A DNA stretch of 64,000 nt from Candidatus Moraniibacteriota bacterium (GTDB lineage: Bacteria > Patescibacteriota > Minisyncoccia > Moranbacterales > UBA1568): the NCBI GenBank assembly GCA_028688415.1, contig JAQTYF010000001.1, forward strand, positions 272,627-336,626, in the 5' to 3' direction. Both the position numbers and the translations under genes were made by a program. Under the pieces are notes generated by a model that worked only from the letters and a program-made list of their open reading frames with translations, did no database searches and was not told the origin of the DNA. Shown here piece by piece: positions 2,685-63,285 of this stretch; the first letter of the stretch is position 1, and each line of letters starts with the position of its first letter.

Positions 2685-2799
2685 AGCTGTATACCGTATA
2701 CAGTATCGCGTATACTGTATAGAAGAAGACGAAGAATGTTAATAATTAAGCCGTGAATCTGATGTGTCATATGTCATACAGAATACGGTATACAATCCT

Positions 2800-16182: not shown

Positions 16183-16212
16183 AAAAACCAGCAGTATTAT
16201 TGCTGGTTTTTT
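16183..16212. terminator. bidirectional terminator hairpin (ccagca-gtattatt-gctgg + T-run) between convergent genes
   Basis: AAAAACCAGCAGTATTATTGCTGGTTTTTTG; symmetric A/T runs. Confidence 0.7.
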
Positions 16213-49563: not shown

Positions 49564-50361
49564 TTACACGATCTTATTTTCAGAAAAGATAGACACAGCA
49601 TCCTTTCCAGATTCTTTGGAGATATAGAGTGCTCGATCGGCACTCTCGAGAGACTCTCTGTAAAGCCTATCCATTTCATCAGGCGTGGAATTTTGTTCGA
49701 TACCTGACGCAGCGATACCGATACTCACAGTCACAGGAAGACAATTTTCCAGCGAAAGTCGCGTATCGATTTTCATAATCCTTCTCAGTTCATTGGCACG
49801 TTCGATGATCTGCTCTCGCGACGCATTGGCGCACAGAACAAGGAATTCGTCTCCGCCGAAACGAGCAACAATATCGCTGTCCCGATGAAATATCTTCTGA
49901 AGCAACTCCCCAAATATCAGAAGAATGAAGTCCCCCATGGCATGACCCTTGATATCGTTCACTTGCTTGAAGTGATCGAGATCGATCGCCATCAAAAATG
50001 GAGCGAAAAACGGGAGGTCATTCGTCAGCGTATACCGCTGGATCAACCCCACTTGCCGATGCAAAGCCCTCTCGAATCCTCGTCGGTTCAAGAGTTTCGT
50101 CAAAGGATCTTGAAATGCCACTTCATGCAAATCTTTCATCAGTTCTTGCATTTCGGCGTTCTTTTTCAGAACCAACACATTGTGCTGATCGTATTCTTTC
50201 AAGATATCCAACAACTCCTGGATTGTTTGGTTTTGAATACGTGTTGAATCGGCGAGCTCTTGCCTGAGTCTTTCATTCTCTTTCTGAAGATCTTCTGTCG
50301 TTGTGTTACGAACGAGGTCGGAAGAACCGGTACCACCATCTTGATCTTGCGCATGAAACAT
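49564..50361 (-). CDS. GGDEF diguanylate cyclase with N-terminal coiled coil, no sensor domain
   Basis: Carries RFGGDEF with the RDSD I-site 5 residues upstream and LTKLLNRRGFE at the start of the domain. The ORF may start at 50397. Confidence 0.88.
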   Translation of the reverse strand: MFHAQDQDGGTGSSDLVRNTTTEDLQKENERLRQELADSTRIQNQTIQELLDILKEYDQHNVLVLKKNAEMQELMKDLHEVAFQDPLTKLLNRRGFERALHRQVGLIQRYTLTNDLPFFAPFLMAIDLDHFKQVNDIKGHAMGDFILLIFGELLQKIFHRDSDIVARFGGDEFLVLCANASREQIIERANELRRIMKIDTRLSLENCLPVTVSIGIAASGIEQNSTPDEMDRLYRESLESADRALYISKESGKDAVSIFSENKIV

Positions 50362-50497
50362 GATTATCTCCTGATTTGGTTGTAAAAGTGCTACCATATT
50401 TTAATAGCACAAAACACTCGTGTTGTCAATAGTACACGAGAGGAACTTTTCTGTTAGAATAGAGATACTATAAACAAATCTCCTTCAATATAACCCT

Positions 50498-51655
50498 ATG
50501 CGTATTTCTTATTCTACGCTCAACAATTATCAGACCTGTCCACTGAAATACAAGTTTCGTGAGATAGATAAAATCAAAGAGCCAAAGTCCAAAGAAGCAG
50601 TTTTCGGGACGCTGATTCATGCGGTGCTGAAATATATTCATACACCAGCTATCCTTTCCCCTACTCTTGATCAGGCTCTCGATTATTATTCCAAAGGTTG
50701 GAACAGCGAGGTCTATGATGATGAAATGGAAGAGAGATCGGCATTCACGCAGGGTGTCGCTATTATACAAAAATATCTCCAAAACAATAAGCCGAACGAC
50801 TATACCATCATCGATCTCGAGAGTCGATTTGCTATTGAAATCGGCAATGAACAAGATGGCATTCACACCGTATCCGGTATCATCGATCGTATCGACAAGA
50901 CTGAAGATGGATACGAAATTATCGATTATAAAACGACGCGCAAGATGCCATCCCAGGATAAAGTCGACAATGATCTCCAGCTCTCTATCTATCTCCGTGC
51001 CTTCCTCGAACGATATCCGAAAGAGAAAGAACATCTGGACAAAATAACCGTCAGTCTCTACTTCGTCAAACACGGTGTGAAACTTTCTTCCAAGCGAACT
51101 AAAGAACAACTCGAACACATTGAGGAAACATTCCTCGATGTTATAAAGTCAATCGAAGAAGAAAAATTTGATCCCATCCTCTCCCCTCTTTGTGACTGGT
51201 GTGGATACCAGAATATTTGTCCGATGTGGAAGCACAAATTCGCAGAGACTCACACGGTAAAGAATGAGGAAGCCGAAAAAGCTATCAGTGAGTATCTCGA
51301 TCTGAAAGGAAAACTCAGTGAAGAAAAACTCCGTCTCGGAAAACTTCAATCACTCATCCTGCAGTATATGGAACAAGAAGGTATCGATCGAGTCTTCGAC
51401 GACAATGGCATTATCGCCAAATCACTTCGCAAAACATACAAATACGATGCTGATCAATTGCGTGCCATTCTCGAACCACTCGACAAATGGGAATCAGTAC
51501 TCAAAGTTGATGGTGTCGCTCTCCGAAATATTCTCGCCGTCCTCCCGACACCCATCAAACAATCCGTTGAAGGTGCCAAAGTCCTCGACAAAGAAAGCGT
51601 CAGTCTCTCGGTCAAGAAGAACAAAATAGAAGTCGATGACGAACTTTCTCTCTAG
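50498..51655 (+). CDS. PD-(D/E)XK nuclease (RecB/Cas4-like domain with Cys cluster) plus C-terminal extension
   Basis: Has N-terminal QTCPLKY, GTLIHAVL, IIDYKTT (D…EK core) and C-terminal CDWCGYQNIC. That is the Cas4/AddB-type four-Cys arrangement, followed by about 130 extra residues. Confidence 0.75.
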   Translation: MRISYSTLNNYQTCPLKYKFREIDKIKEPKSKEAVFGTLIHAVLKYIHTPAILSPTLDQALDYYSKGWNSEVYDDEMEERSAFTQGVAIIQKYLQNNKPNDYTIIDLESRFAIEIGNEQDGIHTVSGIIDRIDKTEDGYEIIDYKTTRKMPSQDKVDNDLQLSIYLRAFLERYPKEKEHLDKITVSLYFVKHGVKLSSKRTKEQLEHIEETFLDVIKSIEEEKFDPILSPLCDWCGYQNICPMWKHKFAETHTVKNEEAEKAISEYLDLKGKLSEEKLRLGKLQSLILQYMEQEGIDRVFDDNGIIAKSLRKTYKYDADQLRAILEPLDKWESVLKVDGVALRNILAVLPTPIKQSVEGAKVLDKESVSLSVKKNKIEVDDELSL

Positions 51656-51701
51656 AAAAAATATCGGCACAAAAGAAAAAACGCTGTCTTACCTCTTTGA
51701 C

Positions 51702-51747
51702 TTGACAGTATTTTTTTGTTCTTGTATTATACCTATACCATAGGTAT
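51702..51747 (+). promoter_or_regulatory. sigma-70 promoter (TTGACA-17-TATTAT) with overlapping CsoR-type operator palindrome ATACCTA-TACCA-TAGGTAT
   Basis: -35 at 51702-51707 and -10 at 51725-51730. The 7-bp inverted repeat at 51729-51747 overlaps the -10 box and the transcription start. It lies immediately upstream of the CsoR-family gene. Confidence 0.65.
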
Positions 51748-51777
51748 ACGTATATAATACATGTTTATAAAAAAATT

Positions 51778-52059
51778 ATGCAAGAAGAAAAAAAGAAGAT
51801 CGTCATTGCCCTTCGCAAGGCCAAGACGAGTATCGAAAAGATAATCGTTCGCATCGAAGAGGAGGAGGCAGAATGCTTTCCTGCCATCCAACAGACACTC
51901 TCTGCTATAGGACTCTTGCGATCGGTGAATATGCTGATGCTCGAAAACCATATGAAACAAGCAATGACAAAACATACAGGGACAAATATCTCTGGGAAAC
52001 AAATGAAGGCGCTCCAGGAAGAAATCCTGAAGATTGTCAAAACGTCTCAAGATAAATAA
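51778..52059 (+). CDS. CsoR/RcnR/FrmR-family metal(or aldehyde)-sensing transcriptional repressor
   Basis: A 93-aa protein carrying IALRKAKTSIEKIIVRIEEEEAEC…AIGLLRSVNMLMLENHM, the DUF156 helix-bundle pattern with Cys/His ligand positions. Confidence 0.7.
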   Translation: MQEEKKKIVIALRKAKTSIEKIIVRIEEEEAECFPAIQQTLSAIGLLRSVNMLMLENHMKQAMTKHTGTNISGKQMKALQEEILKIVKTSQDK

Positions 52060-52079
52060 TCATCATTATCATTCTTTTT

Positions 52080-53210
52080 ATGAAGAAAAAATATCTCCTT
52101 CTTTTCGCTGTTTCCATAATAGGAATACTCATATTTTTTGGCGTACGTTCTTCGGAGTCCGTCTCTCTCACTGAGATGTTAGATGTGCAATCGGTCAAAA
52201 CGATGAGTACTGTTCTCTCACCATTCCAGGAATCAAGAGAATTTTCCGGATTCATCCGGGGTGTCAAACAGACAGATATTGCCTCGAGTATTCCGGGATC
52301 TCTCCTCAAATTGACAAAGGAGGAAGGTGATAGTGTGTATCAAGGTGAAATAATAGCCATCATCGATGGCAGAGAGTTCTCTGCCACTGAGAAAAGTGCT
52401 GCCTCCTCTCTCCAATCAATCGAAAAAACACTGAAAGAAACGAAGAAATATTACGATCAAAAAGTAGATGAAGCAAAAACAGCACTCGACAATACGACAG
52501 GAAAATCTGAAAAAGATTCCGCAGAAGAAGCTCTCAAAAGTGCCAAACGTCTCCGTGATGCACAGATAGCAACGCTTGATACACAAAAAGAAGCGGTTGC
52601 CGGATCTCTTGCGGTCTCGCAAGCCAGTGCGTCACAGACACTTATCCGAGCACCATTTTCTGGTATCATAACGAAAAAAAATACTTCTCTCGGATCCTAT
52701 ATCTCTCCTGGTATATCTTTGTATTCGATTGCTTCCGAAGATGCACTGGAAGTAGTTCTGTCGATTCCAACGTCTATCGCCACTCAGGTAAAAAAAGGAT
52801 CCTTGGTCTCTGTATCTAATAGCAACACGACACTTGATGGATTTGTCTTTTCGATTTCTTCTTTGTCAGAAGAATCCTCTCAGCGTTCTTCGGCTCGCAT
52901 TCGATTTGCTGATAGAAATCAAAGCAATGCATTTTCTTTGAGTGAATATGTACGAGTCACCATACCTCTCGGAGAAACACGCGACGCTATCCTTATACCG
53001 GAACAGGCACTCATTTCTAAATACGATGATACGTTCGTTTTCGTGATTGAAGACAACCAGACAAAGAAATATCCAGTCGTACTCGGGAGTACTGGAAATG
53101 GAACAAGAGAAATCATTACTGGAATCACGCCTGGAATGCATATTGTCATAGAAGGACAACATACACTCTCTCATAATCAAACGGTTATAGAAACATATGT
53201 CACAGAATAA
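52080..53210 (+). CDS. efflux RND periplasmic adaptor (membrane fusion protein, HlyD family)
   Basis: N-terminal TM helix, a lipoyl/β-barrel part (GEIIAIIDG…LIRAPFSGIITKK) and a central coiled coil. Confidence 0.82.
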   Translation: MKKKYLLLFAVSIIGILIFFGVRSSESVSLTEMLDVQSVKTMSTVLSPFQESREFSGFIRGVKQTDIASSIPGSLLKLTKEEGDSVYQGEIIAIIDGREFSATEKSAASSLQSIEKTLKETKKYYDQKVDEAKTALDNTTGKSEKDSAEEALKSAKRLRDAQIATLDTQKEAVAGSLAVSQASASQTLIRAPFSGIITKKNTSLGSYISPGISLYSIASEDALEVVLSIPTSIATQVKKGSLVSVSNSNTTLDGFVFSISSLSEESSQRSSARIRFADRNQSNAFSLSEYVRVTIPLGETRDAILIPEQALISKYDDTFVFVIEDNQTKKYPVVLGSTGNGTREIITGITPGMHIVIEGQHTLSHNQTVIETYVTE

Positions 53211-56200
53211 TCCTCCAGAGAAACTCGGACTGGCTGGAAAGATCACTCAGATATTTCTCAAAAATACGGAATTATCGATCTTGTCCATCATTCTTCTGGC
53301 AGTATGGGGCGCGCTCTCATTTTCTCTCATGCCCAAGCAATACAACCCAGAAATCGTCGCTCCAGCATTTACCATAACGACGGATTTTCCTGGAGCCAGT
53401 GCAAGCGAGATATACGAACTCATCACACGTCCCATCGAAGACAAGGTTTTCGAGTTATCCGATATTGATGAAGTATCATCGCAGAGTTTTCCTGGAGGAA
53501 AAAGTGTCGTCATGGTAAAATTTTTCGTCGGATCAAATCGTGAAGATGCAAAAATAACACTGAACCAGAAACTTCGTGACAACATAACCACCAAACCACA
53601 GGGTGTTTCGGACCCAATGATACAATCCATAGACCCTGATGATGTGCCGATTCTCGACATTGGTCTTTCTTCTGAGACATTCTCTCCGAGCTCACTTCGT
53701 AAACTCGCGATTGATATCTCTGATACTCTCAAGCTGACAAACGGTGTTTCAAAAGTAGAAATCAAGGGTGGCTATATCAATCATCTCGAAATTACCATAG
53801 ATGGAGCAAAACTCTCAGCCCTTGATCTCACACTCGATGAGGTCCTGGGCTCTCTCTCACAAGCAAATGATATCTACACGTTTGATACACTCGAAACAGA
53901 CGAGCGCCATTCTATTGTGAATATCATCGGTAATATACAAAATGAGGAATCACTCAATCAAATCATTGTACGAAACAACGGGCAAACAATCGTACGTATC
54001 AGTGATATAGCCGATGTCTCATACGGACCAGGTGAGATAACTCATTACGTCAGCCGGACAGAGAAAGATGCCGAGAATTCTCCCATCGTACATATCGCTC
54101 TTTCTAAACTCCGAGGAACGAACTCAACAGTCGTATCCGAAGCATCTCTCGATACACTGGACAATCTAAAAGGAAAGCTCATACCAAACGATGTTCGTGT
54201 CGATGTATTGAATGACGAAGGTGCAATAGCCAGTGGCGAAATTTCCAAACTCACCTTTGACCTCATTAAATCAATCATTATCGTCGGAATATTGCTCTTT
54301 ATTTTTCTTGGTGCAAAAAATTCTCTTATTGCTACTATATCGATCCCTCTCGTGCTCTTGGCAGTCTTTGGCACAGGATTTTTAGCAGGACAGACGATCA
54401 ATAGAATCACACTTTTCGCACTTATTCTCTCTCTGGGTCTTCTCGTCGATGATGCTATCGTGGTTGTAGAAAACATCGCTCGCTATTTCCGTCTCTATCC
54501 AAATGAAAACAAATTGAAACTCATCGTACGAGCAGTCGATGAAGTTGGTGGTGCACTCGCTCTTTCCACATTCACGATGGCAATCGCTTTCATTCCGATG
54601 GCATTTGTGACTGGTATGATGGGACCATATATGGGACCGATTCCTTTCTTTGTTCCTGTGGCACTCATCGCGTCACTCCTCTTCGCTGTCACTATCAATC
54701 CATTTTTGGCGCTCCTCTTTTCCAAAGAGAAGGATAAGAAACAGACAAACAAAACGCGTTCCTACGAGTCAGGAATATTTTTCCGTATCGTAAAAAAAAT
54801 TGAAGGTATCTATGCAGAGTTTCTTTCTCGTCTCTTGAGAGAGAGAAAGCGTCGGAATGTTTTCCTCGGCGGGGTTTTGATTCTTCTTATTATCTCTCTT
54901 ATACTTCCACTTACTCCCCTCGTGCCATTTCGGTTATTGCCCAAGGCGAATAAAGATCAATTCTCTCTCTATGTAGACCTTCCTTCTGGTACACACATCG
55001 AACACACGAGGAAAATCACCGAAAAAATTGAGAAAATTATCCTCGAAGAATCAGAAATCACTAGTGTCGAAAGTGCCATCGGCGAATCACTTGTGGTTGA
55101 TTTCAACGGGCTCTTCAAGGGAAGCTCTGGTCGCAAAGGAAGCAATCAGGCGACACTCAAAATACACTTGACACCACATAAGGATCGATCACTCGTTTCT
55201 GAAGAAATAGCCTCTAGCATCCGTGCTTCTCTTTCTCTTTTCACGAAAGGAAATCCAGATGCAGTTATTCGACTTGTCGAAGATCCACCGGGACCACCAG
55301 TTCTCGCCACATTCCTTCTCAAAATAAAGGGTGGCGATGACAGAATGCGTGAACAGATCGCTTCTGATATGACAACAGAAATACGTTCTATTTCTGGTAT
55401 CGTCGATATCGATACATCCGTACTCGAGCGTGGTGCGAATATCTCCTACCGTGTCAATCATGAAAAAGCCGGGTTGCTCGGTATAGCACCAAACGATATT
55501 GTACGAACACTTCACACGGCTCTCTCCGGATCATCTATTGGTCTTTATCATGAATCTTCACGTGAAGATGTGCGAAAAGCCGAACAAGAGTATATCACGA
55601 TTCGCTTTGATAAAAAATCTCGCGATAACGAAAATGATCTCTCGCTCATTCGATTGATGAGCAAGAACGGTGTGACTATCCCGCTTACAGAATTGATCGA
55701 GAAAACAGAAGAAACAGTCGATACCGCTATACTTTCCGACGATCGAGAACAGACGATTTATCTCTCAGGGGAAATGGAGGGGCGAAGCATTATCTACGCC
55801 GTCATCGATCTTTTTCCAAAACTGCTCTCCTATGAAATACCCGGAACATCACTTAAACGTGTTTCTTGGTCACTTCTCGGTGCAGTGTATGAGGATACGG
55901 TCACCCACAAACACTATACGATCGAAATCGGTGGTGAATGGAAACTGACACTTGAAGTCTTCCGTGATCTCGGTATCGCTATGGGACTCGCTCTTTTTCT
56001 CATCTATTTCATTCTTGCTGCAAAAACCGAATCGTTGTTTATTCCTCTTCTTATCATGGTCAGTATCCCGCTTGCTCTCATCGGAGTCTTGCCTGGATTC
56101 GCTCTGCTTCAGTCTTTCAAGGGAACCTATTTCAACGCGACATCAATGATCGGCGTCATCGCTCTTGCTGGTCTCGCCGTGAAAAATGCTGTCATCTATC

Positions 56201-56472
56201 TCGAATATCTCGAACCACTCAAAAAATCAGGAAAGAAAATCGAGGAAGCGCTCGTGGAGACTGGACGAGTTCGGCTCCTCCCTATCGCCCTTACATCACT
56301 CGCTGCTATTCTCGGATCATTCACTATCGTCAGTGATCCAGTTTGGGAAGGTCTCGGATGGTCTATTATTTTTGGTCTCACAGCATCGACGTTCCTCACT
56401 CTTATCGTCTTCCCTCTGGTATATTTCATCTTCGCACGAAAAAAGTGGTATAATGAAACAAAAGAAGAATAA
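53197..56472 (+). CDS. RND efflux transporter permease (HAE-type, AcrB/AcrD family)
   Basis: A 1091-aa protein with a 12-TM duplicated architecture. TM4 carries LSLGLLVDDAIVVVENI, which is HAE-type rather than HME-type. It overlaps the MFP gene end by 14 nt. Confidence 0.9.
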   Translation: MSQNNPPEKLGLAGKITQIFLKNTELSILSIILLAVWGALSFSLMPKQYNPEIVAPAFTITTDFPGASASEIYELITRPIEDKVFELSDIDEVSSQSFPGGKSVVMVKFFVGSNREDAKITLNQKLRDNITTKPQGVSDPMIQSIDPDDVPILDIGLSSETFSPSSLRKLAIDISDTLKLTNGVSKVEIKGGYINHLEITIDGAKLSALDLTLDEVLGSLSQANDIYTFDTLETDERHSIVNIIGNIQNEESLNQIIVRNNGQTIVRISDIADVSYGPGEITHYVSRTEKDAENSPIVHIALSKLRGTNSTVVSEASLDTLDNLKGKLIPNDVRVDVLNDEGAIASGEISKLTFDLIKSIIIVGILLFIFLGAKNSLIATISIPLVLLAVFGTGFLAGQTINRITLFALILSLGLLVDDAIVVVENIARYFRLYPNENKLKLIVRAVDEVGGALALSTFTMAIAFIPMAFVTGMMGPYMGPIPFFVPVALIASLLFAVTINPFLALLFSKEKDKKQTNKTRSYESGIFFRIVKKIEGIYAEFLSRLLRERKRRNVFLGGVLILLIISLILPLTPLVPFRLLPKANKDQFSLYVDLPSGTHIEHTRKITEKIEKIILEESEITSVESAIGESLVVDFNGLFKGSSGRKGSNQATLKIHLTPHKDRSLVSEEIASSIRASLSLFTKGNPDAVIRLVEDPPGPPVLATFLLKIKGGDDRMREQIASDMTTEIRSISGIVDIDTSVLERGANISYRVNHEKAGLLGIAPNDIVRTLHTALSGSSIGLYHESSREDVRKAEQEYITIRFDKKSRDNENDLSLIRLMSKNGVTIPLTELIEKTEETVDTAILSDDREQTIYLSGEMEGRSIIYAVIDLFPKLLSYEIPGTSLKRVSWSLLGAVYEDTVTHKHYTIEIGGEWKLTLEVFRDLGIAMGLALFLIYFILAAKTESLFIPLLIMVSIPLALIGVLPGFALLQSFKGTYFNATSMIGVIALAGLAVKNAVIYLEYLEPLKKSGKKIEEALVETGRVRLLPIALTSLAAILGSFTIVSDPVWEGLGWSIIFGLTASTFLTLIVFPLVYFIFARKKWYNETKEE

Positions 56473-56490
56473 TTCAATAAGCATGAATCT

Positions 56491-56706
56491 ATGTCACTCT
56501 ACAGAATGGATATATCCACATGGTCAGTCGAACGCACGATGTTTGCCTTCGGAGGATTACTCGTTATCATTTTTTCTCTCTTGGCACTCTCAGTAAACGA
56601 TGCTTTTGTTTACGGGGCACTATTCATCGGTATAATGTTCAGCGTTTTCGCTCTCACTGGATATTGCCCAGGAGCCATTATTGTTGCCAAGATACTGAAA
56701 AAATAA
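56491..56706 (+). CDS. DUF2892-family small membrane protein (YgaP-like)
   Basis: Carries WSVERTMFAFGGLLVI…ALTGYCPGAII, which matches the ER…G…TGWCP pattern of DUF2892. Confidence 0.6.
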   Translation: MSLYRMDISTWSVERTMFAFGGLLVIIFSLLALSVNDAFVYGALFIGIMFSVFALTGYCPGAIIVAKILKK

Positions 56707-56758
56707 TAGAAATACTTTTTCTTTTCGGGCTCCGTATTCCACTCTTTCATCAAATTGT

Positions 56759-57700
56759 ATGAAACAAATCTCTCTTGTCATTCCTGCCTATAATGAAGCG
56801 GACAATATCCGTCCCATGTATGATGCTCTACAAAAATCTCTCTCGTCTATCAAGGATCGATATGAATTTGAAATTCTTTTTATCAATGACGGAAGTAAAG
56901 ATACGACGAGGGAAGAGGTAGCGAAGTTAGAGAACGAAAATACTCAAGTGAAATGTATTGATTTCTCACGAAACTTCGGTAAAGAAATAGCAACAACAGC
57001 CGGACTCAATCACTGTACCGGTGACGCGTGCATCATGATCGATGCTGATCTCCAGCATCCAGCAGAACGTATCCCTGATTTCATCACGAAATGGGAAGAG
57101 GGTTTCGATGTCGTCGTCGGTATACGAAAAGAAAACAAGAGTGATTCTTGGATCAAAAAAACAGGGAGCTTGATATTCTATACTCTCTTGAACAAAATAT
57201 CTGATATAGAAATCATTCCCAATACAACCGACTTCCGACTCCTCGATCGAGCCGTCATAGATGCATTCAACTGTTTCACTGAAACCAAACGTCTCACCAG
57301 GGGTCTCATAGATTGGCTCGGGTTCAGACGCGCATACATCACCTTTGATGCTCACGAACGCTTGCACGGAACAGCCTCCTATAGCGTCTGGAAGCTTACC
57401 AAACTCGCTTTGCACAGTTTTATGTCTCTCAGCCTCTTTCCACTCAAAATGGCCGGGTATATCGGTATTATCATCACATTCATCTCTTTTGTTTCTGGTT
57501 CATATATCTTTCTGGGGAAATATTTTTTCGATTGGTATTGGGCGCTCACCTTTTCTGATTCTGAAGACCTCGCTATCTTCATTGTGTTCCTCGTAGGTAT
57601 TCTCCTCATGTCTATCGGACTGATTTCTCTCTACGTTGCAAACATTCACGAGGAAGTCATCAAACGACCTCTCTATATAGTACGGAAAAATCGATCATAG
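56759..57700 (+). CDS. GT2 polyprenol-phosphate glycosyltransferase (GtrB/DPM1-like) with C-terminal TM helices
   Basis: Carries VIPAYNEADNI…FINDGSKDTT…IDADLQHP and two C-terminal TM helices. Confidence 0.85.
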   Translation: MKQISLVIPAYNEADNIRPMYDALQKSLSSIKDRYEFEILFINDGSKDTTREEVAKLENENTQVKCIDFSRNFGKEIATTAGLNHCTGDACIMIDADLQHPAERIPDFITKWEEGFDVVVGIRKENKSDSWIKKTGSLIFYTLLNKISDIEIIPNTTDFRLLDRAVIDAFNCFTETKRLTRGLIDWLGFRRAYITFDAHERLHGTASYSVWKLTKLALHSFMSLSLFPLKMAGYIGIIITFISFVSGSYIFLGKYFFDWYWALTFSDSEDLAIFIVFLVGILLMSIGLISLYVANIHEEVIKRPLYIVRKNRS

Positions 57701-57745: not shown

Positions 57746-58363
57746 CTATTCCTTATCAGTAAATACAACCAATCGTTTTGAATAATTCTTCGAATCTTTA
57801 TCCCATACCCCCTCACAAGTAATCAGATTCAGATGTGATTGTTCGTCATCTGAACTGAATATGTCGCTTGTATCAATGCTCGGATCATATATCCGCCATT
57901 CGCGCACGATAAAAGTGTTGATTGTTCCGGTTGCGTTTTCAACAGATACCGTATCTCCGATTTCAAGTGTGCTCAGATTATCAAACACTGAACCCTCCCC
58001 GTTTTTCCAAGTGCCGTAGTGTCCATCAATAACAGCGCTCCCGACATCTCCTGGACGTGGACCCTCACGAAACCATCCAACAGTATGTGGCCCATTTGGT
58101 ACTGCCATTGTTCCGCTTTGCGTAACGCCCATCTGATCTATCATGGCATCGACACCGATCTTGGGAATTCGTAAACGCACTGGTAACGGAGACAGTGTTT
58201 CATCTTCTTGGTCAAGATCTGAAGAGATGATATTTGTTGTCTGAACAGCAACAGGGCTATTCTCTTTCTCAAAAAAAACAAGGGGAGAAAAGATACCTAT
58301 TCCACAAACGAGACCACTCCCAAGAAGAAGCCAAAAGATTTTGTGTCGCACTGTCATCTTCAT
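57746..58363 (-). CDS. sortase (class E/F-like)
   Basis: N-terminal TM anchor, IDGHYG (His), LNLITCEG (TLxTC Cys) and REWR (Arg). Confidence 0.8.
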   Translation of the reverse strand: MKMTVRHKIFWLLLGSGLVCGIGIFSPLVFFEKENSPVAVQTTNIISSDLDQEDETLSPLPVRLRIPKIGVDAMIDQMGVTQSGTMAVPNGPHTVGWFREGPRPGDVGSAVIDGHYGTWKNGEGSVFDNLSTLEIGDTVSVENATGTINTFIVREWRIYDPSIDTSDIFSSDDEQSHLNLITCEGVWDKDSKNYSKRLVVFTDKE

Positions 58364-58448
58364 AGATATCGTTTTTATAAAGAGAGAGTCAAACCAGAAT
58401 CGGAGTGGCTCTTTTTATTTCCTCTCAGACTGTCTCGCATCATTTCTC

Positions 58449-59144
58449 CTACTGACGAGCAGTCAATGATGCAGTACAAACCGGTTCAGTAATCTGGTTA
58501 TTATCCATCGTCACCTGGGTATGTGCCCAAGCTCGCCCTTGCAGGCTCGCACCATTGGCAAGTGAAATAAGTCCTGTATTGGTGAGAATGCTTCCGACAA
58601 TGGCTGAATTTGTGCCGATTGTCATAGAAGTAGGGATTTGCCAAAATACATTACACGGGGTAGCTCCATTGATTAAACGCACTTGTGCCGTACCCGATGT
58701 CGTGATGCTTGATGAACTACGAAAAATATAGACACCAGCACCATTCAGAGTCAGTGTGCCGTTGAGCGTCGTTGCTCCTATGGTATACACGCCAGGTGTC
58801 ACAGTATTCGTACCAGCCAGATCGAGTGATCCTGTCGCTGATTCTCCTGCGAGATCACCATACGCGGAAGCGATAGCGTTCACGACAGCGACATTGCCGG
58901 CTCCATCTATCGTACCGGCTACTTGTGAACTGATGAGTCCAGGGTGGAGGAAGGCATTATCACCTACATCTCCCCAAACGTGTGTACCTGAACCAGTATT
59001 GGTGATTCCTGCATTACCAAAGACCGAATAGCCAGTAGCCACCCCGAGGTTTGGAGCAGTGGCCGCTTGTGCTCTCTGCTCTGAAAAGACGAAAGCACAG
59101 AGTGTGAAAGCAGTGACTATCAAAATTTTATTGGATAATTTCAT
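58449..59144 (-). CDS. secreted DUF3494 ('ice-binding-like') β-helix protein
   Basis: Signal peptide …AQA|ATAP, then LGVATGYSVFGNAGITNTGSGTHVWGDVG and repeated T/S-x-T/N rungs characteristic of DUF3494. GC-richer codon usage. Confidence 0.65.
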   Translation of the reverse strand: MKLSNKILIVTAFTLCAFVFSEQRAQAATAPNLGVATGYSVFGNAGITNTGSGTHVWGDVGDNAFLHPGLISSQVAGTIDGAGNVAVVNAIASAYGDLAGESATGSLDLAGTNTVTPGVYTIGATTLNGTLTLNGAGVYIFRSSSSITTSGTAQVRLINGATPCNVFWQIPTSMTIGTNSAIVGSILTNTGLISLANGASLQGRAWAHTQVTMDNNQITEPVCTASLTARQ

Positions 59145-59384: not shown

Positions 59385-61295
59385 CTAGAAAGAAAGTTCC
59401 TTCAGAAGATCATTCAGATCAAGCGAGGCCATGCCGACGACCGTATCACCGCCACCATAGTAGATGACAAGTTTCTTACCCATGATGATCGATCCGCACG
59501 GGAAAACAACGTTTGGTACGATCCCCTCTTTTTCGTATGACATTTCTGGTTCGAAGAGTGGTGTACGCGATCGTCCGATCACTTTTTCTGGATGCTTCAG
59601 ATCAAGCAGTGCTGCTCCGACTCGATAGGTATGGTCGACAGAAGAAACACCGTGGTAAATGAGGAGCCAGCCTTTCTTGGTTTTGAGAGGAGTCGACGAG
59701 AGACCAACTTTCAGATCATCCCACATGTTGATACGCGGAGAGAGGATAGGTCTCTTCACGAAGAAATGCTCTCCATCGAAATCATCGAGACTTTGAATAT
59801 AATTCAGATGAATAGAAGGCTGGACACGGTGAATGAAAACATATTGACCATCGATCTTCTCTGGAAAAATAGCCGCATCTTTGTTATCAACTTCCGCACT
59901 CGAAAGAAGAATTGGTTTGGTAAATTTCTCGAATTTTCGATGGAGAAAATCTTTGACAGCAATACTCGTCATCGCCACTCTCGGTGGATTCACTGCATCG
60001 AAAGCCGTATAACACATATAGTACGTCGAACCGATTTTGGTAAATCGTGCATCTTCACAACCCGAATTGCCAGGATTTTTCTTTTGCTCAAAATCTTCAC
60101 GCGGACTATAAATAGGAATCGGTAATCGCTCATCAATATGAACACCATCTTTGCTCACAGCATATCCAAAACGTGATGTCCCATCGAATCCTTGAGCACG
60201 ATAGACAATATGCACCTTGCCATCCTCATACATCGCAGCGGGATTGTATACTGCCATCGCTTCCCATTCATGCTCTGGAATTGGAGAGAGGATCGGGTTT
60301 TCTTCCGCACGATCGAAACGAAGAGAGCTTTCCTTGGCAAGCATTTCCCGAAGCAGTCCCGAAAGCGAAACCGTCGCACGACAGACTGTCGTATCAGCTG
60401 CACCATAGTAGATATGCACTTCATCTTCTTCTATATACGCCCCGGAAGGGAAAACGATATCAGGAATCATTCCATAATGCTCGTATTCTTCCTGTGGCAC
60501 CATGAGTGGTGTCGGTGTCCGTCCGATGATCTTGCGAGGATTATGGAGATCGAGGAGAACAGCTTCGATACCAAATACCTGATCTGATTTCCCATAGTGA
60601 TAGATATGAGAATAGATAAGTAACCATCCTGCTTTTGTTTTGAGTGGCGGAGCTCCGATTTCGACGTGATCATCGAGTGTCTTATGGAGATCGAGAGCAT
60701 GTTCTGGAAGTTCTTTGTACCATTTGTTCCAATATGCTTCCGACCACATATCTGATTCTTTTTCGAAACTTGCAAGAGCGATTGTCACAGGTGGCTGGTC
60801 AGTATTGGCACTGAGAAGCGCCATCATTTTCCCATCGATCTTCTCCGGAAAAAGCGTCATCGCTTTGGAATTGAAATTCGTCACATGATGCCTACTTTTT
60901 ATTGTCTTCAAATCTTTGGTCGTGACGAGTCCTACTGTGATACCCGCTGGCGAAAAAGGATACGTCGCGAGTGCGGTATAGAAGATATAAAACGTATCAC
61001 CGAGTTTCGTCACACGAGGATCTTCACAACCATATTGTTCCCACGGTTCTTCGGGGACGACAAACTGCGTGTAATCATTGAAATGTATCCCATCATCACT
61101 CACTGCGTGTCCGACGGTCGAGAGTGAGAGCATCGCTCCATGATGGAGTTCTGGTGTCGCGAGCGCTCGATAGAAAATATGAACTTTCTTCCCCTGTTTG
61201 ATTGGTGAACCATTGAAAGCAGCGAGATTTTCCCACATATTTTGACTCATGGGGAGTACGACAGGATTTTCTGGAGAGCGAACGAGTGAGTACAT
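59385..61295 (-). CDS. tandem-domain GH130-family protein (β-mannoside phosphorylase/glycosidase-related)
   Basis: Two repeats of the GH130 pattern (SPENPVV…WE…FN…GCEDPRVTK and AEENPILSP…WEAMAVYNPAA…GCEDARFTK). 636 aa. Confidence 0.8.
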   Translation of the reverse strand: MYSLVRSPENPVVLPMSQNMWENLAAFNGSPIKQGKKVHIFYRALATPELHHGAMLSLSTVGHAVSDDGIHFNDYTQFVVPEEPWEQYGCEDPRVTKLGDTFYIFYTALATYPFSPAGITVGLVTTKDLKTIKSRHHVTNFNSKAMTLFPEKIDGKMMALLSANTDQPPVTIALASFEKESDMWSEAYWNKWYKELPEHALDLHKTLDDHVEIGAPPLKTKAGWLLIYSHIYHYGKSDQVFGIEAVLLDLHNPRKIIGRTPTPLMVPQEEYEHYGMIPDIVFPSGAYIEEDEVHIYYGAADTTVCRATVSLSGLLREMLAKESSLRFDRAEENPILSPIPEHEWEAMAVYNPAAMYEDGKVHIVYRAQGFDGTSRFGYAVSKDGVHIDERLPIPIYSPREDFEQKKNPGNSGCEDARFTKIGSTYYMCYTAFDAVNPPRVAMTSIAVKDFLHRKFEKFTKPILLSSAEVDNKDAAIFPEKIDGQYVFIHRVQPSIHLNYIQSLDDFDGEHFFVKRPILSPRINMWDDLKVGLSSTPLKTKKGWLLIYHGVSSVDHTYRVGAALLDLKHPEKVIGRSRTPLFEPEMSYEKEGIVPNVVFPCGSIIMGKKLVIYYGGGDTVVGMASLDLNDLLKELSF

Positions 61296-61314: not shown

Positions 61315-63285
61315 TTATGCATTGGTAAGTGTTTTCTTCAAAGTCGTCATCGTGACCTTTCCAGTGGTAGTGAGCTGATCCAAGAATTCTCCGAGCGGTG
61401 CGGTAGCGACAGCGACCGTCGTGTCAGCTCCACCATAATAGACAAAAAGTGTCTCATCTTTGATTACTGCTCCACAGACATACACGACACCAGATTTCAA
61501 TCCTTCATTCTCATAATGTTCGTCTGGTTCGAGTATTGGTTCGACGCAACGAGCGAGGATTTTCTCAGGATCATTCTGATCGAGGAGCATCGCGCCTACC
61601 TTGTAACGATTCGGGTCATTCTGATCCATTGCGTGATAGAGTACGAGCCAGCCCTGATCCGTCTTGAGAGGAGTCGCACCGACACCTCGGACAATGTTAT
61701 CCCACTGACTCTTGTCGGTATAGTGTTGCTTGGTATGATAGCTATCGATGAGAAGTGATTCGTCATCGAGAGAAGCGACATAGTCGATAGATATTTTGGG
61801 CGAAATACTGTGAAGTACAGCATAATGACCATTGATTTTTTCTGGGAAAATAACCCAGTTCTTCTGAATCTGCCCAGGACGAGAGATGAGTCGTGGCGCT
61901 TCCCATTCCCATACTTTGTTCACGAAATTCTCCGTAGTAATGGAAGTCAGTGCCACTCCTGGTGGATTGTATCCATTGAACGAAATGTAAATCATATAAA
62001 TCTTGTCCTCGATTTGCGTCAAACGAGGATCCTCACAGCCACCCCATCCTCCACCAGAAATACACGGGAACGGATGCTTGTTTTTTTTGAAATCTTGATT
62101 GAGAAAATAGACAGGGTCTGTAGAACGTTCATCGATATGAACACCATCACTACTCCCTGCATAACCAAAGACGGAAATATTATCAAATCCTTGTGCCCGA
62201 TAGATCAGATGCACCTTGTCATTCAAATAGAGTGCAGCAGGATTGAATGTTGCCATCGATTCCCATGCATTTTCTTTGTTTGGTTCGAGAATAGGATTCT
62301 TCGCAGACCGAGTGAGAGGCTTAGTCACACGAGGTTTCTTGGTAGTCTTCGTGAGTGGTTTTTTGACAGTTTTTCTTGGCAGTTTGTTGTCCAGATCGAC
62401 ATCATAGGCGAGTTTCTCGGAGAATACTTCACCTCGTCCGTGTTCGAAATAGGCAACAAAAGCATTTTTCGTCTGGATGATTCCAAGTACTTTAATTTTG
62501 TTGGTAATCCAATCAATAGGCTGTTCCCAGAGAGGGTGCGCAGATCGCCATACGATTCTTCCTGGAGCCTGCTTATCAAAAAGCACGACACCGAGACAGA
62601 GCTTCTTGCGTGCATTTTTGGCAGTATAGAACAGTGCGATATGTTCACCGACATTCAACACTCGAGCAACTCGGAGAGCACTGTGATCAAAACGATTCTT
62701 CCGTGGTCGCATGAGGGCATCCGGCATAATGTGCCACTGATTGAGATTGGCAGAAGTCGCAATTCTGATGGAGGTGTTTCCGAAATAAAGAATATGGTGT
62801 TTTTCGAAAAGATATTCCGGCACTACCATACCGAAAGAATTCACCCCAGTAATGAGGGACTGTTTCTGAAACTGAATACCTTTGTGAGAAGTCGCTCCGT
62901 AGAGATGTGTACGGAGATGATGATCTCGCTTGGTATAGGTCATGAAATAGCGATTCTCTGCTATTTTGGTCGTCGCCATTTCATCGATATGCAGAGAATC
63001 TTCACGATGACGGAAGAACGCAGTATCGATCTTGAGATGTTTGGGAGAGTCGACAAAAGAAGAACCATTGGAACTTTCTTTCATTCTGAAAAAATATTCT
63101 TTCTTTCCTGAAAAAGAATAAATCAAACGGAACAGTCCGTTTTTACTGTATAAATCGAGACCACGAATAGGTGGTGTTTGTTGCATATTTTTTTGTTTTT
63201 CTTCCACGTCGACAATACTGTTTTGATATTGAAATGAAATATACCCTATCTTTTGTACGGTTTCTTTCACACCCGTATCATACAA
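61315..63285 (-). CDS. GH130-family protein with divergent N-terminal β-propeller-like domain (paralogue of 59385-61295)
   Basis: The C-terminal half reads AKNPILEPNKENAWESMATFNPAAL…GGCEDPRLTQ. The N-terminal roughly 330 aa is divergent. Confidence 0.75.
   Translation of the reverse strand: MYDTGVKETVQKIGYISFQYQNSIVDVEEKQKNMQQTPPIRGLDLYSKNGLFRLIYSFSGKKEYFFRMKESSNGSSFVDSPKHLKIDTAFFRHREDSLHIDEMATTKIAENRYFMTYTKRDHHLRTHLYGATSHKGIQFQKQSLITGVNSFGMVVPEYLFEKHHILYFGNTSIRIATSANLNQWHIMPDALMRPRKNRFDHSALRVARVLNVGEHIALFYTAKNARKKLCLGVVLFDKQAPGRIVWRSAHPLWEQPIDWITNKIKVLGIIQTKNAFVAYFEHGRGEVFSEKLAYDVDLDNKLPRKTVKKPLTKTTKKPRVTKPLTRSAKNPILEPNKENAWESMATFNPAALYLNDKVHLIYRAQGFDNISVFGYAGSSDGVHIDERSTDPVYFLNQDFKKNKHPFPCISGGGWGGCEDPRLTQIEDKIYMIYISFNGYNPPGVALTSITTENFVNKVWEWEAPRLISRPGQIQKNWVIFPEKINGHYAVLHSISPKISIDYVASLDDESLLIDSYHTKQHYTDKSQWDNIVRGVGATPLKTDQGWLVLYHAMDQNDPNRYKVGAMLLDQNDPEKILARCVEPILEPDEHYENEGLKSGVVYVCGAVIKDETLFVYYGGADTTVAVATAPLGEFLDQLTTTGKVTMTTLKKTLTNA

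What the first reader, a model, noticed from the sequence alone, without database searches (positions are those of the whole stretch)
51700..56472. CsoR-family repressor with textbook promoter and operator, positioned to control an MFP plus HAE-type RND efflux pair
A TTGACA-17-TATTAT promoter is overlapped by the 7-5-7 palindrome ATACCTA-TACCA-TAGGTAT, which resembles the ATACC…GGTAT type of CsoR operators. It is followed by a 93-aa CsoR/RcnR/FrmR-like protein, then a membrane-fusion protein and a 1091-aa RND pump with translationally overlapping stop and start. CsoR-family regulators normally control P-type ATPases, CDF or RcnA-type exporters, or formaldehyde dehydrogenases. Pairing one with an HAE-type (AcrB-like, TM4 LLVDDAIVVVEN) RND system in an apparently monoderm organism is unusual. 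The regulator has Cys and His but lacks an obvious third ligand after the His (ENHMKQAM), so its effector could be a non-copper metal or a reactive electrophile.
Basis: partly seen in the sequence, partly recalled or inferred. Interest (0 to 1): 0.55.

Follow-up and report, generated by a model that had tools for sequence, protein, structure and literature searches.

The report
CsoR-type repressor controlling an RND pump
A small repressor of the copper-sensor (CsoR) family in an uncultivated Moranbacteria genome has lost most of its metal-binding residues and, using the operator that its relatives use for metal-pumping ATPases, appears to control a drug-type RND efflux pump, a pairing I found in no paper.

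Summary
A TTGACA-17-TATTAT promoter (51702-51730) abuts a conserved operator.

The source is a Candidatus Moranbacteria (CPR) genome. The cassette is kept in every related locus long enough to show it, down to 37% regulator identity, although the flanking genes differ. The fourth gene is missing in one of them.

Phylogenetic footprinting moves the operator to a 10-3-10 dyad, TACCTATACC-ATA-GGTATACGTA (51730-51752). It is 84% conserved against about 35% in the flanks.

The nearest relatives are canonical x-C-H-C or H-C-H-C CsoRs of other CPR lineages. They use the same operator but control HMA-domain proteins and P1B-ATPases. Sensor motif and cargo separate cleanly: 44 canonical regulators with ATPase cargo, 25 x-C-H-x regulators with RND cargo, and no exceptions.

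The most likely reading is an autoregulated repressor operon in which the metal site was dismantled and the cargo swapped. The effector is unknown. I favour a thiol-reactive species acting on the single Cys33. Cu(I) is the main rival.

This is a new variant of a known kind, of moderate interest.

The parts
51702..51707 (+). -35 hexamer TTGACA
   Evidence: Promoter scan, 11 of 12 match. TTGAC is present upstream of the operator in all 17 aligned regions and in L026 and L027.
51725..51730 (+). -10 hexamer TATTAT, 17 nt after the -35
   Evidence: A TAnTAT-like hexamer at 16-17 nt spacing is seen in most related loci.
51730..51752 (.). Operator: 10-3-10 dyad TACCTATACC-ATA-GGTATACGTA, made of two nested TACC/GGTA repeats. 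It abuts the -10 and covers the expected transcription start.
   Evidence: The only match in the window, with 0 expected. 84% mean pairwise identity against 34-37% in the flanks. The dyad keeps 7-9 of 10 pairs in 17 distinct loci. The same sequence lies in front of canonical csoR/P1B-ATPase operons.
51778..52059 (+). CsoR-family repressor, 93 aa. Sensor residues Cys33 and His58. Z position is Ala62. No N-terminal His or Pro ligand. Single Cys.
   Evidence: PF02583 31.4 bits against gathering score 22.8. Three-helix model, pLDDT 89. Foldseek top hits FrmR, CsoR and InrS. Residue conservation.
52080..53210 (+). Membrane-fusion (adaptor) protein, 376 aa. N-terminal membrane anchor, no Cys, no conserved His or Met.
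   Evidence: TIGR01730 174.5 bits against cut-off 94.9; HlyD_D23 and HlyD_3. Conservation.
53197..56472 (+). RND permease, 1091 aa, HAE-type. TM4 D418/D419, TM10 K996, TM11 R1026/T1033. Its start overlaps the end of the MFP gene by 14 nt.
   Evidence: ACR_tran 529 bits. NF033617 429 bits against CusA/CzcA 257 bits. PDB neighbours are multidrug RND pumps (MexB, AcrB and similar). Motifs. No Cys and no invariant His.
56491..56706 (+). DUF2892/YgaP-like two-helix membrane protein, 71 aa, with an invariant TGYCP motif holding its only Cys. Fourth gene of the cassette.
   Evidence: PF11127 23.4 bits, just under the gathering score of 25.3. Found after the RND gene in nearly all related loci. Absent in L026.

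Best explanation
This is a four-gene, self-repressed efflux operon of a Candidatus Moranbacteria (CPR) bacterium: csoR-like repressor, membrane-fusion protein, HAE-type RND permease, DUF2892 membrane protein.

How it most likely works:

1. Shown by sequence and comparison. One sigma-70-type promoter drives all four genes. A 23-bp dyad directly after the -10 hexamer is the operator.
2. Inferred from the family. One or two tetramers of the CsoR-family protein sit on the dyad and block RNA polymerase. The inducer acts at the inter-subunit site formed by the protein's only cysteine (Cys33) and His58 of the partner subunit. That lowers DNA affinity and switches on the pump.
3. Shown by comparison. 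The regulator belongs to a Moranbacteria branch nested next to canonical CsoRs (x-C-H-C or H-C-H-C, with Tyr before the Cys). Those relatives use the same operator to control an HMA-domain membrane protein and a P1B-type ATPase. In this branch the Tyr, the second Cys and any N-terminal ligand are gone, and the cargo has been replaced by MFP, RND and DUF2892.
4. Inferred, weakest step. Because the metal site is dismantled and the pump shows no metal-pump hallmarks, the input is probably no longer a tightly bound metal. I favour a thiol-reactive species, such as reactive sulfur or a lipophilic electrophile or oxidant, that modifies Cys33 with His58 acting as activating base. The pump would expel that compound, or compounds related to it, from the membrane.
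For: Architecture:
- Promoter; ORFs and domains.
- Gaps of 20 nt, -14 nt and 18 nt between the four genes. No + strand terminator-like site.
- The regulator-to-MFP gap is -4 to 31 nt in 16 of 18 loci.

Conservation of the cassette:
- Regulator, MFP and RND are kept in all 27 loci fetched through the regulator (L001-L027), at 37-100% regulator identity, wherever the contig reaches, even where flanking genes differ.
- The DUF2892 gene follows in all that reach that far except L026.

Operator:
-.

Family and fold:
-.

Sensor residues among 120 clade members:
- Cys33 100%, His58 93%, Glu82 93% (aligns with M. tuberculosis CsoR Glu81).
- The Z position and the N-terminus are variable. 115 of 120 members have one Cys.
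- When His58 is lost, a His appears at Z in 7 of 8 cases. So one Cys and one His is the conserved unit.

Evolutionary origin:
- A profile search separates the clade from canonical Y-C...H...C CsoRs.
- The outgroup lies in csoR > HMA-DsbD_2 > P1B-ATPase operons with the same operator.
- In a metagenome scan with the operator 17-mer, 55 sites precede outgroup-type regulators, most with HMA or ATPase cargo visible, and 7 precede clade-type regulators, 6 of them with MFP/RND cargo visible.
- Motif against cargo: 44 to 0 and 0 to 25.

Pump is not a metal type:
- NCBIfam scores and PDB neighbours.
- No Cys, no invariant His and no periplasmic Met cluster in the RND. No Cys and no invariant His or Met in the MFP.

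Hints towards thiol or sulfur chemistry:
- The only two Cys-bearing products of the operon each carry one invariant Cys.
- A DUF2892 gene was about 10-fold induced during H2S oxidation in Azospira (PMC5358917).
- T. thermophilus TTHA1953 is a cysteine-modulated CsoR-like repressor. It binds a similar nested TAC/GTA operator without a G-tract (PMC10318464).
- Rhodanese genes lie beside or near the cassette in four distant loci.
Against: - Nothing has been tested experimentally. All sequences come from metagenome assemblies.
- The effector assignment rests on absences and on weak context hints.
- Cys plus His, with Glu82 retained, could still bind Cu(I) or another soft metal in two-coordinate fashion. 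Seven of 120 members have C-H-H and two have C-H-C, which are accepted Cu(I) motifs.
- The module descends from metal sensors and keeps their operator. A canonical CsoR in the same cell could therefore also repress this promoter.
- A metal sensor driving a multidrug-type RND pump has precedent: GolS with MdsABC/GesABC (PMC10333786).
- The clean split of motif and cargo reflects two clades, so it may be one evolutionary event rather than many.
- Rhodanese genes are common, so their proximity may mean nothing.
- The 58 operator-17-mer stretches without a CsoR-like ORF were judged by reading their flanks only; their neighbouring genes were not annotated.
Confidence: 0.6

Rival explanations
1. The regulator is still a copper or silver sensor. 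Cys33 and His58 of the partner subunit, perhaps with the variable Z residue, bind Cu(I). The RND, MFP and DUF2892 set has taken over the role that the P1B-ATPase plays in related lineages, or removes copper-damaged or copper-complexed compounds.
For: - The closest relatives are canonical CsoRs with P1B-ATPase cargo and the same operator.
- Cys, His and the Glu equivalent to M. tuberculosis CsoR Glu81 are retained.
- Some clade members have C-H-H or C-H-C.
- The named members of the two groups come from different CPR lineages, which would fit replacement. Few members carry names, so this is weak.
- DUF2892 has an intramembrane Cys-Pro, reminiscent of CPx metal sites (the comparison is from my own knowledge).
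- GolS-controlled MdsABC/GesABC is a precedent.
Against: - The Z ligand is variable and usually not a Cu(I) ligand: E 37%, Y, T, S, A.
- The Tyr before the Cys is absent in all RND-linked members. From the literature as I know it, that Tyr is needed for Cu-driven allostery in M. tuberculosis CsoR.
- The pump lacks the CusA-type Met triad and Met pairs. The MFP lacks CusB-type Met or ZneB-type His sites.
- NCBIfam scores favour the multidrug type.
- No HMA-domain or copper chaperone gene occurs in any cassette.
Confidence: 0.25
2. The regulator is an FrmR-type formaldehyde or aldehyde sensor.
For: - E. coli FrmR is the best match among solved structures by sequence (profile E = 8.7e-5) and by fold (TM 0.78-0.80).
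- FrmR is the only NCBIfam hit.
- The X-Y-Z pattern C-H-(E/T) matches FrmR.
Against: - The FrmR mechanism needs Pro2, whose amine is bridged to Cys35 (P-C-H-x; PMC8643695). Here the N-terminus is three residues shorter than FrmR in the alignment, is variable and never starts Met-Pro.
- The NCBIfam FrmR score is 27 bits against a cut-off of 133.
- No formaldehyde dehydrogenase gene is nearby.
- The nearest relatives in sequence databases are canonical CsoRs, not FrmR.
Confidence: 0.05
3. The regulator controls only its own gene. The MFP, RND and DUF2892 genes are transcribed from a separate promoter at the end of the regulator gene.
For: A weak promoter-like site, TTGTCA-18-AATCAT at 52034-52063, matches 9 of 12 positions. 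Two distant loci have gaps of 78 and 94 nt.
Against: - Sites matching 9 of 12 occur at chance frequency: 12 found against 10.7 expected.
- Its -35 lies in codons for the conserved IVK.
- The gap is 20 nt here, -4 to 31 nt in 16 of 18 loci, with ATGA overlaps in two.
- No terminator-like site was found.
- Gene order is invariant across all loci.
Confidence: 0.05

Closest known systems
Canonical Cu(I)-sensing CsoR (M. tuberculosis, B. subtilis, S. lividans; x-C-H-C) with copZ/copA-type cargo
   Same: Same Pfam family and three-helix fold. Cys at the start of helix 2, His near its end and the second-shell Glu are all kept. It is self-regulated from a pseudo-palindromic operator at the promoter. 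The CPR representatives of this group use the very same TACCTATACC-ATA-GGTrTAGGT operator.
   Different: No Z-position Cys and no Tyr before the Cys. The cargo is MFP, HAE-type RND and DUF2892 instead of an HMA protein and a P1B-ATPase. The operator lacks the G/C tract of four or more bases described as typical of the family (PMC10318464).
E. coli and Salmonella FrmR (P-C-H-x formaldehyde sensor)
   Same: Best structural and sequence match among solved structures. C-H-x pattern with E or T at Z.
   Different: Lacks Pro2 and the conserved N-terminus. No frmA-type cargo. Far below the NCBIfam equivalog cut-off.
T. thermophilus TTHA1953 (CsoR-like repressor of the Sox genes, modulated through cysteine)
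   Same: Its operator is two nested TAC/GTA repeats without a G-tract: TACNNTACNNNNGTANNGTA, against TAC-N3-TAC-N5-GTA-N3-GTA here. It responds through thiol chemistry rather than as a metal sensor.
   Different: Each repeat spacing differs by one base. TTHA1953 acts on distant sulfur-oxidation genes. Its sensor residues were not compared here.
CstR persulfide sensors (x-C-x-C)
   Same: A CsoR-family repressor that senses through cysteine chemistry. The S. mitis cst operator ATATACCC-TTAT-GGGGTATAT is of the same ATACC...GGTAT kind, and two tetramers bind per operator.
   Different: CstR needs two Cys and lacks the Y-position His. This clade has one Cys and keeps the His. CstR cargo is sulfurtransferases, persulfide dioxygenase and SQR, not a pump.
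GolS-controlled MdsABC/GesABC of Salmonella
   Same: A multidrug-type (HAE) RND pump placed under a sensor that descends from metal sensors (PMC10333786).
   Different: GolS is a MerR-family activator. That pump works with an outer-membrane channel in a Gram-negative cell.

Membership tests
CsoR/RcnR family (PF02583) | Matches the family HMM above the curated threshold | tested here: met
   31.4 bits against a gathering score of 22.8.
CsoR/RcnR family (PF02583) | Three-helix protomer like solved family members | tested here: met
   AlphaFold2 model with pLDDT 89 and helices 2-27, 33-66 and 73-92. The top ten Foldseek hits in the PDB are all chains of five family structures (FrmR, S. lividans CsoR, InrS, M. 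tuberculosis CsoR, T. thermophilus CsoR), best TM 0.78-0.80.
CsoR/RcnR family (PF02583) | Dimer-of-dimers tetramer that binds a pseudo-palindromic operator at its own promoter | not testable with these tools
   A conserved dyad at the promoter is present. Oligomeric state and DNA binding need experiment.
Cu(I)-sensing CsoR (x-C-H-C) | Cys at X and His at Y | tested here: met
   Cys33 in 100% and His58 in 93% of 120 clade members. Aligned to M. tuberculosis CsoR C36 and H61.
Cu(I)-sensing CsoR (x-C-H-C) | Cys (or His) at Z as third Cu(I) ligand | tested here: not met
   Ala62 in the window. In the clade: E 37%, Y 15%, T 12%, H 12% by column count. Only 2 of 120 have C-H-C and 7 have C-H-H.
Cu(I)-sensing CsoR (x-C-H-C) | Second-shell Tyr before the Cys, and a Glu in helix 3 | tested here: not met
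   The Glu is kept (Glu82, 93%). The Tyr is absent in all RND-linked members and present in all ATPase-linked relatives.
Cu(I)-sensing CsoR (x-C-H-C) | Neighbouring copA or copZ-type genes | tested here: not met
   No HMA or P1B-ATPase gene in any of 25 distinct RND-linked loci. Such genes are present in 44 of 44 canonical relatives whose cargo is visible.
RcnR/InrS Ni/Co sensors (H-C-H-H or H-C-H-C) | N-terminal His3 (W position) and His or Cys at Z | tested here: not met
   The N-terminus is MQEEKKK here and variable in the clade, with no conserved His. Z is variable.
FrmR formaldehyde sensors (P-C-H-x) | Pro2 that cross-links to the X-position Cys | tested here: not met
   No Pro2. The protein starts at FrmR position 4 in the alignment. 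NCBIfam FrmR 27 bits against a cut-off of 133.
CstR persulfide sensors (x-C-x-C) | Two Cys, at X and Z, that form di- to tetrasulfide links | tested here: not met
   A single Cys in 115 of 120 members.
CstR persulfide sensors (x-C-x-C) | Neighbouring sulfurtransferase, persulfide dioxygenase or SQR genes | tested here: inconclusive
   None in the window. A rhodanese gene is adjacent in L026 and about 2 kb downstream in L023, L024 and L027.
HAE-1-type RND permease | Proton-relay residues: two Asp in TM4, Lys in TM10, Arg and Thr in TM11 (AcrB D407, D408, K940, R971, T978; numbering from my own knowledge) | tested here: met
   D418, D419, K996, R1026 and T1033 in motifs VDDAIVVVEN, VKNAV and RLLPIALTS.
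HAE-1-type RND permease | Reaches the curated NCBIfam subfamily score | tested here: not met
   NF033617 429 bits against a cut-off of 1250. It is the best-scoring model, but the protein is a divergent relative.
HAE-1-type RND permease | Works with an outer-membrane factor | tested here: not met
   No OMF gene in any cassette. The host has sortase and LCP genes and belongs to the CPR.
HME (heavy-metal) RND permease | CusA/CzcA-type signature: Met triad and Met pairs, or the DFG-DGA-VEN form of TM4 | tested here: not met
   TM4 is LLVDDAIVVVEN. There is no invariant Met in the region that would correspond to the CusA cleft, no invariant His and no Cys. TIGR00914 257 bits against a cut-off of 701.
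RND membrane-fusion protein (TIGR01730) | Reaches the curated score | tested here: met
   174.5 bits against a cut-off of 94.9.
DUF2892 / YgaP-like TM domain (PF11127) | Matches the family HMM above threshold | tested here: inconclusive
   23.4 bits against a gathering score of 25.3 in the window. Precomputed hits on the orthologs are unmarked in L005 and 'weak' in seven other loci. The TGYCP motif is invariant.

The most novel reading that the evidence does not exclude
The Moranbacteria branch is a new functional class of the CsoR family. It would be a one-Cys, one-His thiol switch that no longer reads a metal. It would instead read reactive sulfur species or lipophilic electrophiles. It would drive the first described CsoR-controlled RND system: an adaptor-plus-pump pair with no outer-membrane partner, together with an intramembrane-thiol protein (DUF2892), in a cell without an outer membrane. 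It would have arisen by swapping the cargo behind an unchanged promoter-operator module.
Probability: 0.3. Interest if true: 0.7.

Novelty: new variant of a known kind. Interest (0 to 1): 0.5.

Why it matters
It offers a clean natural experiment in how a one-component sensor circuit is rewired. The promoter, the operator and the DNA-reading residues stay the same, while the ligand site is stripped to one Cys and one His and the output changes from a metal ATPase to a drug-type RND pump.

It adds a cargo type not listed among the characterised CsoR-family classes: Cu, Ni/Co, formaldehyde and persulfide (PMC8643695).

It gives a concrete, testable handle on two poorly understood things. One is what RND-plus-adaptor pairs do in CPR bacteria, which lack an outer membrane. 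The other is what DUF2892 proteins do.

The operator and regulator are small enough to test directly in vitro.

Tried and rejected
It is not conserved where the spacer is TAT.
- Met54 and Asn51 as extra ligands. They align with Met57 and Asn54 of M. tuberculosis CsoR (residue numbering from my own knowledge), so they are family-wide structural residues.
- Palindrome statistics as proof. The window holds 11 such palindromes against 2.4 in shuffles, which is not decisive.
- Further operator copies as a regulon. None in the window even with 3 mismatches, and one per locus. Whole genomes could not be scanned.
- An internal promoter at 52034-52063. It is at chance level.
- Literature precedent for a CsoR-family regulator with an RND pump, or for RND pumps in CPR or Moranbacteria. 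Four full-text searches found none. The supplement of the CsoR network paper is not held, so its uncharacterised clusters 6-9 could not be checked.
- Rfam and tRNA scans of the window found nothing.
- Metal-related genes elsewhere in the window. None among the 38 ORFs scanned against Pfam.
- The metagenome operator scan as a search for new cargo types. Besides ATPase and RND cargo, about 45 of the 120 hits look like chance matches inside coding DNA, judged by reading their flanks.

Full report
**What is in the window**

TTGACA lies at 51702-51707, followed by 17 nt and TATTAT at 51725-51730. This matches 11 of 12 consensus positions and is the best sigma-70-like site in 51300-57000.

Four + strand ORFs follow:
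- 51778-52059, 93 aa.
- 52080-53210, 376 aa.
- 53197-56472, 1091 aa, overlapping the previous gene by 14 nt.
- 56491-56706, 71 aa.

Their family matches are:
- The 93-aa protein matches PF02583 (Trns_repr_metal) at 31.4 bits against a gathering score of 22.8.
- The 376-aa protein is an RND adaptor, TIGR01730 at 174.5 bits against 94.9.
- The 1091-aa protein is ACR_tran at 529 bits.
- The 71-aa protein is a near-threshold YgaP-like_TM/DUF2892 match, 23.4 bits against 25.3.

No + strand terminator-like site lies inside the region.

**Source and surroundings**

The regulator is identical to MDD2766434.1 and MDD3965095.1 of Candidatus Moranbacteria, on a contig of 939 kb.

The rest of the window is mostly an envelope-glycan cluster. 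It also holds LytR-CpsA-Psr, sortase, GGDEF, a PD-(D/E)XK nuclease, RtcB, PriA, GluRS and GH130 genes. No metal-homeostasis gene appeared among the 38 ORFs I scanned against Pfam.

**The cassette is conserved**

Nineteen close homologues and a profile search (389 proteins at E <= 1e-3, best 120 listed) are, wherever named, Moranbacteria or Patescibacteria.

I fetched 27 loci through the regulator, at 37-100% regulator identity. Regulator, adaptor and RND are adjacent and co-oriented in every one that is long enough, although the flanking genes differ. The DUF2892 gene follows the pump in all of these that reach that far except L026. Its TGYCP motif, holding its only Cys, is invariant.

The regulator-to-adaptor gap is -4 to 31 nt in 16 of 18 distinct loci. 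The adaptor and RND genes overlap by 14 nt in the window and in L001 and L005. Co-transcription is therefore the economical reading.

**The operator**

I aligned 17 distinct upstream regions on the inner repeat. This shows a block of about 27 nt, TATACCTATACC-wwt-GGTATAgGTAT. Its mean pairwise identity is 84%, against 34-37% in the promoter spacer and both flanks.

The conserved symmetry is a 10-3-10 dyad, TACCTATACC/GGTATAGGTA. It keeps 7-9 of 10 pairs everywhere.

In the window the operator is 51730-51752. It starts on the last base of the -10 hexamer, so a bound repressor would occlude the start site. TTGAC lies upstream of the operator in all 17 aligned regions, at a position that varies by a few bases, and a TAnTAT-like hexamer follows it at 16-17 nt in most; L026 and L027 have the same layout.

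The window has no second site even with three mismatches. The 14 loci that carry the exact inner palindrome hold exactly one copy each. Palindromes of this size are not rare in the window, 11 against 2.4 in shuffles, so the case rests on conservation and position.

**The regulator**

An AlphaFold2 model (pLDDT 89) has three helices, 2-27, 33-66 and 73-92. Its ten best PDB matches by Foldseek are all chains of CsoR-family structures: E. coli FrmR (TM 0.78-0.80), S. lividans CsoR, InrS, M. tuberculosis CsoR and T. thermophilus CsoR.

Alignments to solved members place Cys33 on M. tuberculosis CsoR Cys36, His58 on His61, Ala62 on Cys65 and Glu82 on Glu81.

Among 120 clade members:
- Cys33 and Phe34 are invariant. 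His58 is 93% and Glu82 is 93%.
- The Z position and the N-terminus are variable.
- 115 members have a single Cys.
- In 7 of the 8 members without His58, a His sits at Z.

So one Cys and one His is the conserved unit. In the W-X-Y-Z scheme (PMC8643695) the clade is x-C-H-x. That matches none of the characterised classes:
- Cu: x-C-H-C or x-C-H-H.
- Ni/Co: H-C-H-H or H-C-H-C.
- Formaldehyde: P-C-H-x.
- Persulfide: x-C-x-C.

**Where the regulator came from**

A profile of 61 clade members was run against 1.84 billion representative proteins. It finds only 296 at E <= 1e-3. The dozen or so best are the clade. The next ones switch to Tyr-Cys...His-x3-Cys with two or more Cys.

These nearest relatives are 46% identical to the window protein over the first 63 residues. 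Where named, they come from Patescibacteria, Peregrinibacteria and Gracilibacteria. They lie in csoR > HMA-DsbD_2 membrane protein > HMA-P1B-ATPase operons.

Their promoters carry the same operator:
- L028: ATACCTATACCATAGGTGTAGGT.
- L029: TATACCTATACCATAGGTAGTGGTAT.

- 62 have a CsoR-like ORF beside the site. Of these, 55 are of the outgroup type, 43 of them with HMA or P1B cargo visible on the contig, and 7 are of the clade type, 6 of them with MFP or RND cargo visible.
- About a dozen show the full operator with no CsoR-like ORF detected beside it. In eight stretches an HMA or P1B-ATPase gene follows the site directly, and four stretches with ATPase hits nearby have 56-60% G+C.
- The remainder look like chance matches in coding DNA, judged by reading their flanks.

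Taking all distinct regulators in all loci:
- (x/H)-C-H-C with Tyr before the Cys: 44 with HMA or P1B cargo, 0 with RND.
- x-C-H-(E, T, H, Y, A, N) or C-Y-H, without the Tyr: 25 with MFP or RND cargo, 0 with ATPase.

The split follows two clades, so it may record a single event. It shows that stripping the metal site and swapping the cargo went together while the promoter-operator module was kept.

**The pump**

NCBIfam ranks multidrug RND models (429 and 395 bits) above CusA/CzcA (257 bits). All are below their curated cut-offs, so the protein is a divergent relative. The closest solved chains are multidrug RND pumps such as MexB, AcrB, MdtF, MdtB and unnamed efflux transporters.

The proton-relay residues are present: TM4 VDDAIVVVEN (D418, D419), TM10 VKNAV (K996) and TM11 RLLPIALTS (R1026, T1033). 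The AcrB numbering used for comparison is from my own knowledge.

Across 18 orthologues the pump has no Cys, no invariant His and no invariant Met in the region that would correspond to the CusA cleft. The adaptor has no Cys and no invariant His or Met. These proteins show none of the hallmarks of metal-exporting RND systems.

**Mechanism and effector**

Firmly supported: a single promoter, an operator at the start site, a CsoR-family repressor encoded as the first gene, and three co-transcribed efflux genes.

Inferred from the family: tetramer binding (two tetramers per operator in CstR and CsoR; PMC8643695) and release when the Cys/His site is occupied or modified.

The effector is the weak point.

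Against a classical metal input:
- The Z ligand, the Tyr and any N-terminal ligand are lost.
- The pump is not of the metal type.
- No HMA or chaperone gene is present.

Hints towards thiol chemistry:
- One invariant Cys in the regulator and one in DUF2892 are the only cysteines in the operon's products.
- A DUF2892 gene was about 10-fold induced under H2S oxidation in Azospira (PMC5358917).
- T. thermophilus TTHA1953 is a cysteine-modulated CsoR-like repressor of Sox genes. It binds a similarly built operator without a G-tract, TACNNTACNNNNGTANNGTA (PMC10318464).
- Rhodanese genes lie near the cassette in four distant loci.

For copper as rival:
- The regulator descends from canonical sensors and keeps Cys, His and Glu.
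- A few members have C-H-H or C-H-C.
- A metal sensor, GolS, drives the multidrug-type pump MdsABC/GesABC in Salmonella (PMC10333786).

My estimates:
- About 0.85 for the operon and repressor architecture.
- About 0.6 for 'no longer a classical three-coordinate metal sensor'.
- About 0.4 for a thiol-reactive organic or sulfur effector.
- About 0.25 for Cu(I) or Ag(I).
- 0.05 or less each for formaldehyde and for an independent pump promoter, and less for Ni/Co.

**Novelty**

Four full-text searches found no paper that pairs a CsoR-family regulator with an RND pump, or that discusses RND pumps in CPR or Moranbacteria. The CsoR network paper lists no such cargo in its main text, and its supplement is not held. 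Public annotation calls the protein only a 'metal-sensing transcriptional repressor'.

I file it as a new variant of a known kind: a member of the CsoR family by sequence and fold, but not a member of any characterised functional class.

Noticed in passing
L021, L023, L024 (RND orthologues), compared with window 53197-56472: In the most distant cassette orthologues the second TM4 Asp and the TM10 Lys change together: VDDAIVV with VKNAV becomes VDNATVV with VNNAI. A charged pair of the proton relay is replaced by Asn and Asn.
   Followed up: partly
L092, L094, L111, L128 (metagenome contigs, 56-60% G+C) and L090, L106, L125, L133, L137: The full TACCTATACC-ATA-GGTATAGGTA-type operator, or a close variant of it, lies close to P1B-ATPase or HMA genes with no adjacent CsoR-like gene detected. 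Four of these contigs have high G+C, unlike the low G+C of most other loci. The operator type therefore seems to be used well beyond Moranbacteria.
   Followed up: partly
L026 5838-6662; L023 13746-14063; L024 from 14205; L027 10214-10615: A rhodanese gene lies directly upstream of the cassette in L026, which lacks the DUF2892 gene. Rhodanese genes lie about 2 kb downstream in three other distant loci.
   Followed up: no
window 536-36502: A long envelope-polysaccharide cluster: several GT4 and GT2 glycosyltransferases, two Wzy-like polymerases, a Wzx/MurJ-like flippase, two UDP-glucose dehydrogenases, PMT-like transferases, an LPG-synthase-TM protein and a LytR-CpsA-Psr ligase.
   Followed up: no
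window 59385-61295 and 61315-63285 (- strand): Two tandem genes of about 640-655 aa for GH130 (mannoside phosphorylase-like) proteins. The orthologue of the first gene in L012 and L013 shows two GH130 hits, so it may be a doubled domain.
   Followed up: no
window 57746-59144 (- strand): A sortase gene (57746-58363) lies next to a secreted ice-binding-like (PF11999) protein (58449-59144).
   Followed up: no
window 49564-51655: A GGDEF diguanylate cyclase (- strand) and a Cas4-like PD-(D/E)XK nuclease with a DUF7376 tail (+ strand) lie just upstream of the cassette. This pairing recurs in many but not all related loci.
   Followed up: no
window 51753-51758: A perfect TATAAT lies immediately after the right arm of the operator. 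Similar TATAAT-like hexamers follow the operator in several loci, for example GGTATAAT in L023-L025. There is no matching -35. It may be a second -10 element or simply AT-rich leader.
   Followed up: partly
window 1-64000: No tRNA gene and no Rfam family at gathering score in 64 kb.
   Followed up: yes
window 2698-2720 and 16186-16208: Two other strong 10-3-10 palindromes lie in intergenic positions: ATACAGTATCGCGTATACTGTAT between a GT2 gene and a UDP-glucose dehydrogenase gene, and AACCAGCAGTATTATTGCTGGTT between convergent genes. They may be an operator and a terminator.
   Followed up: no
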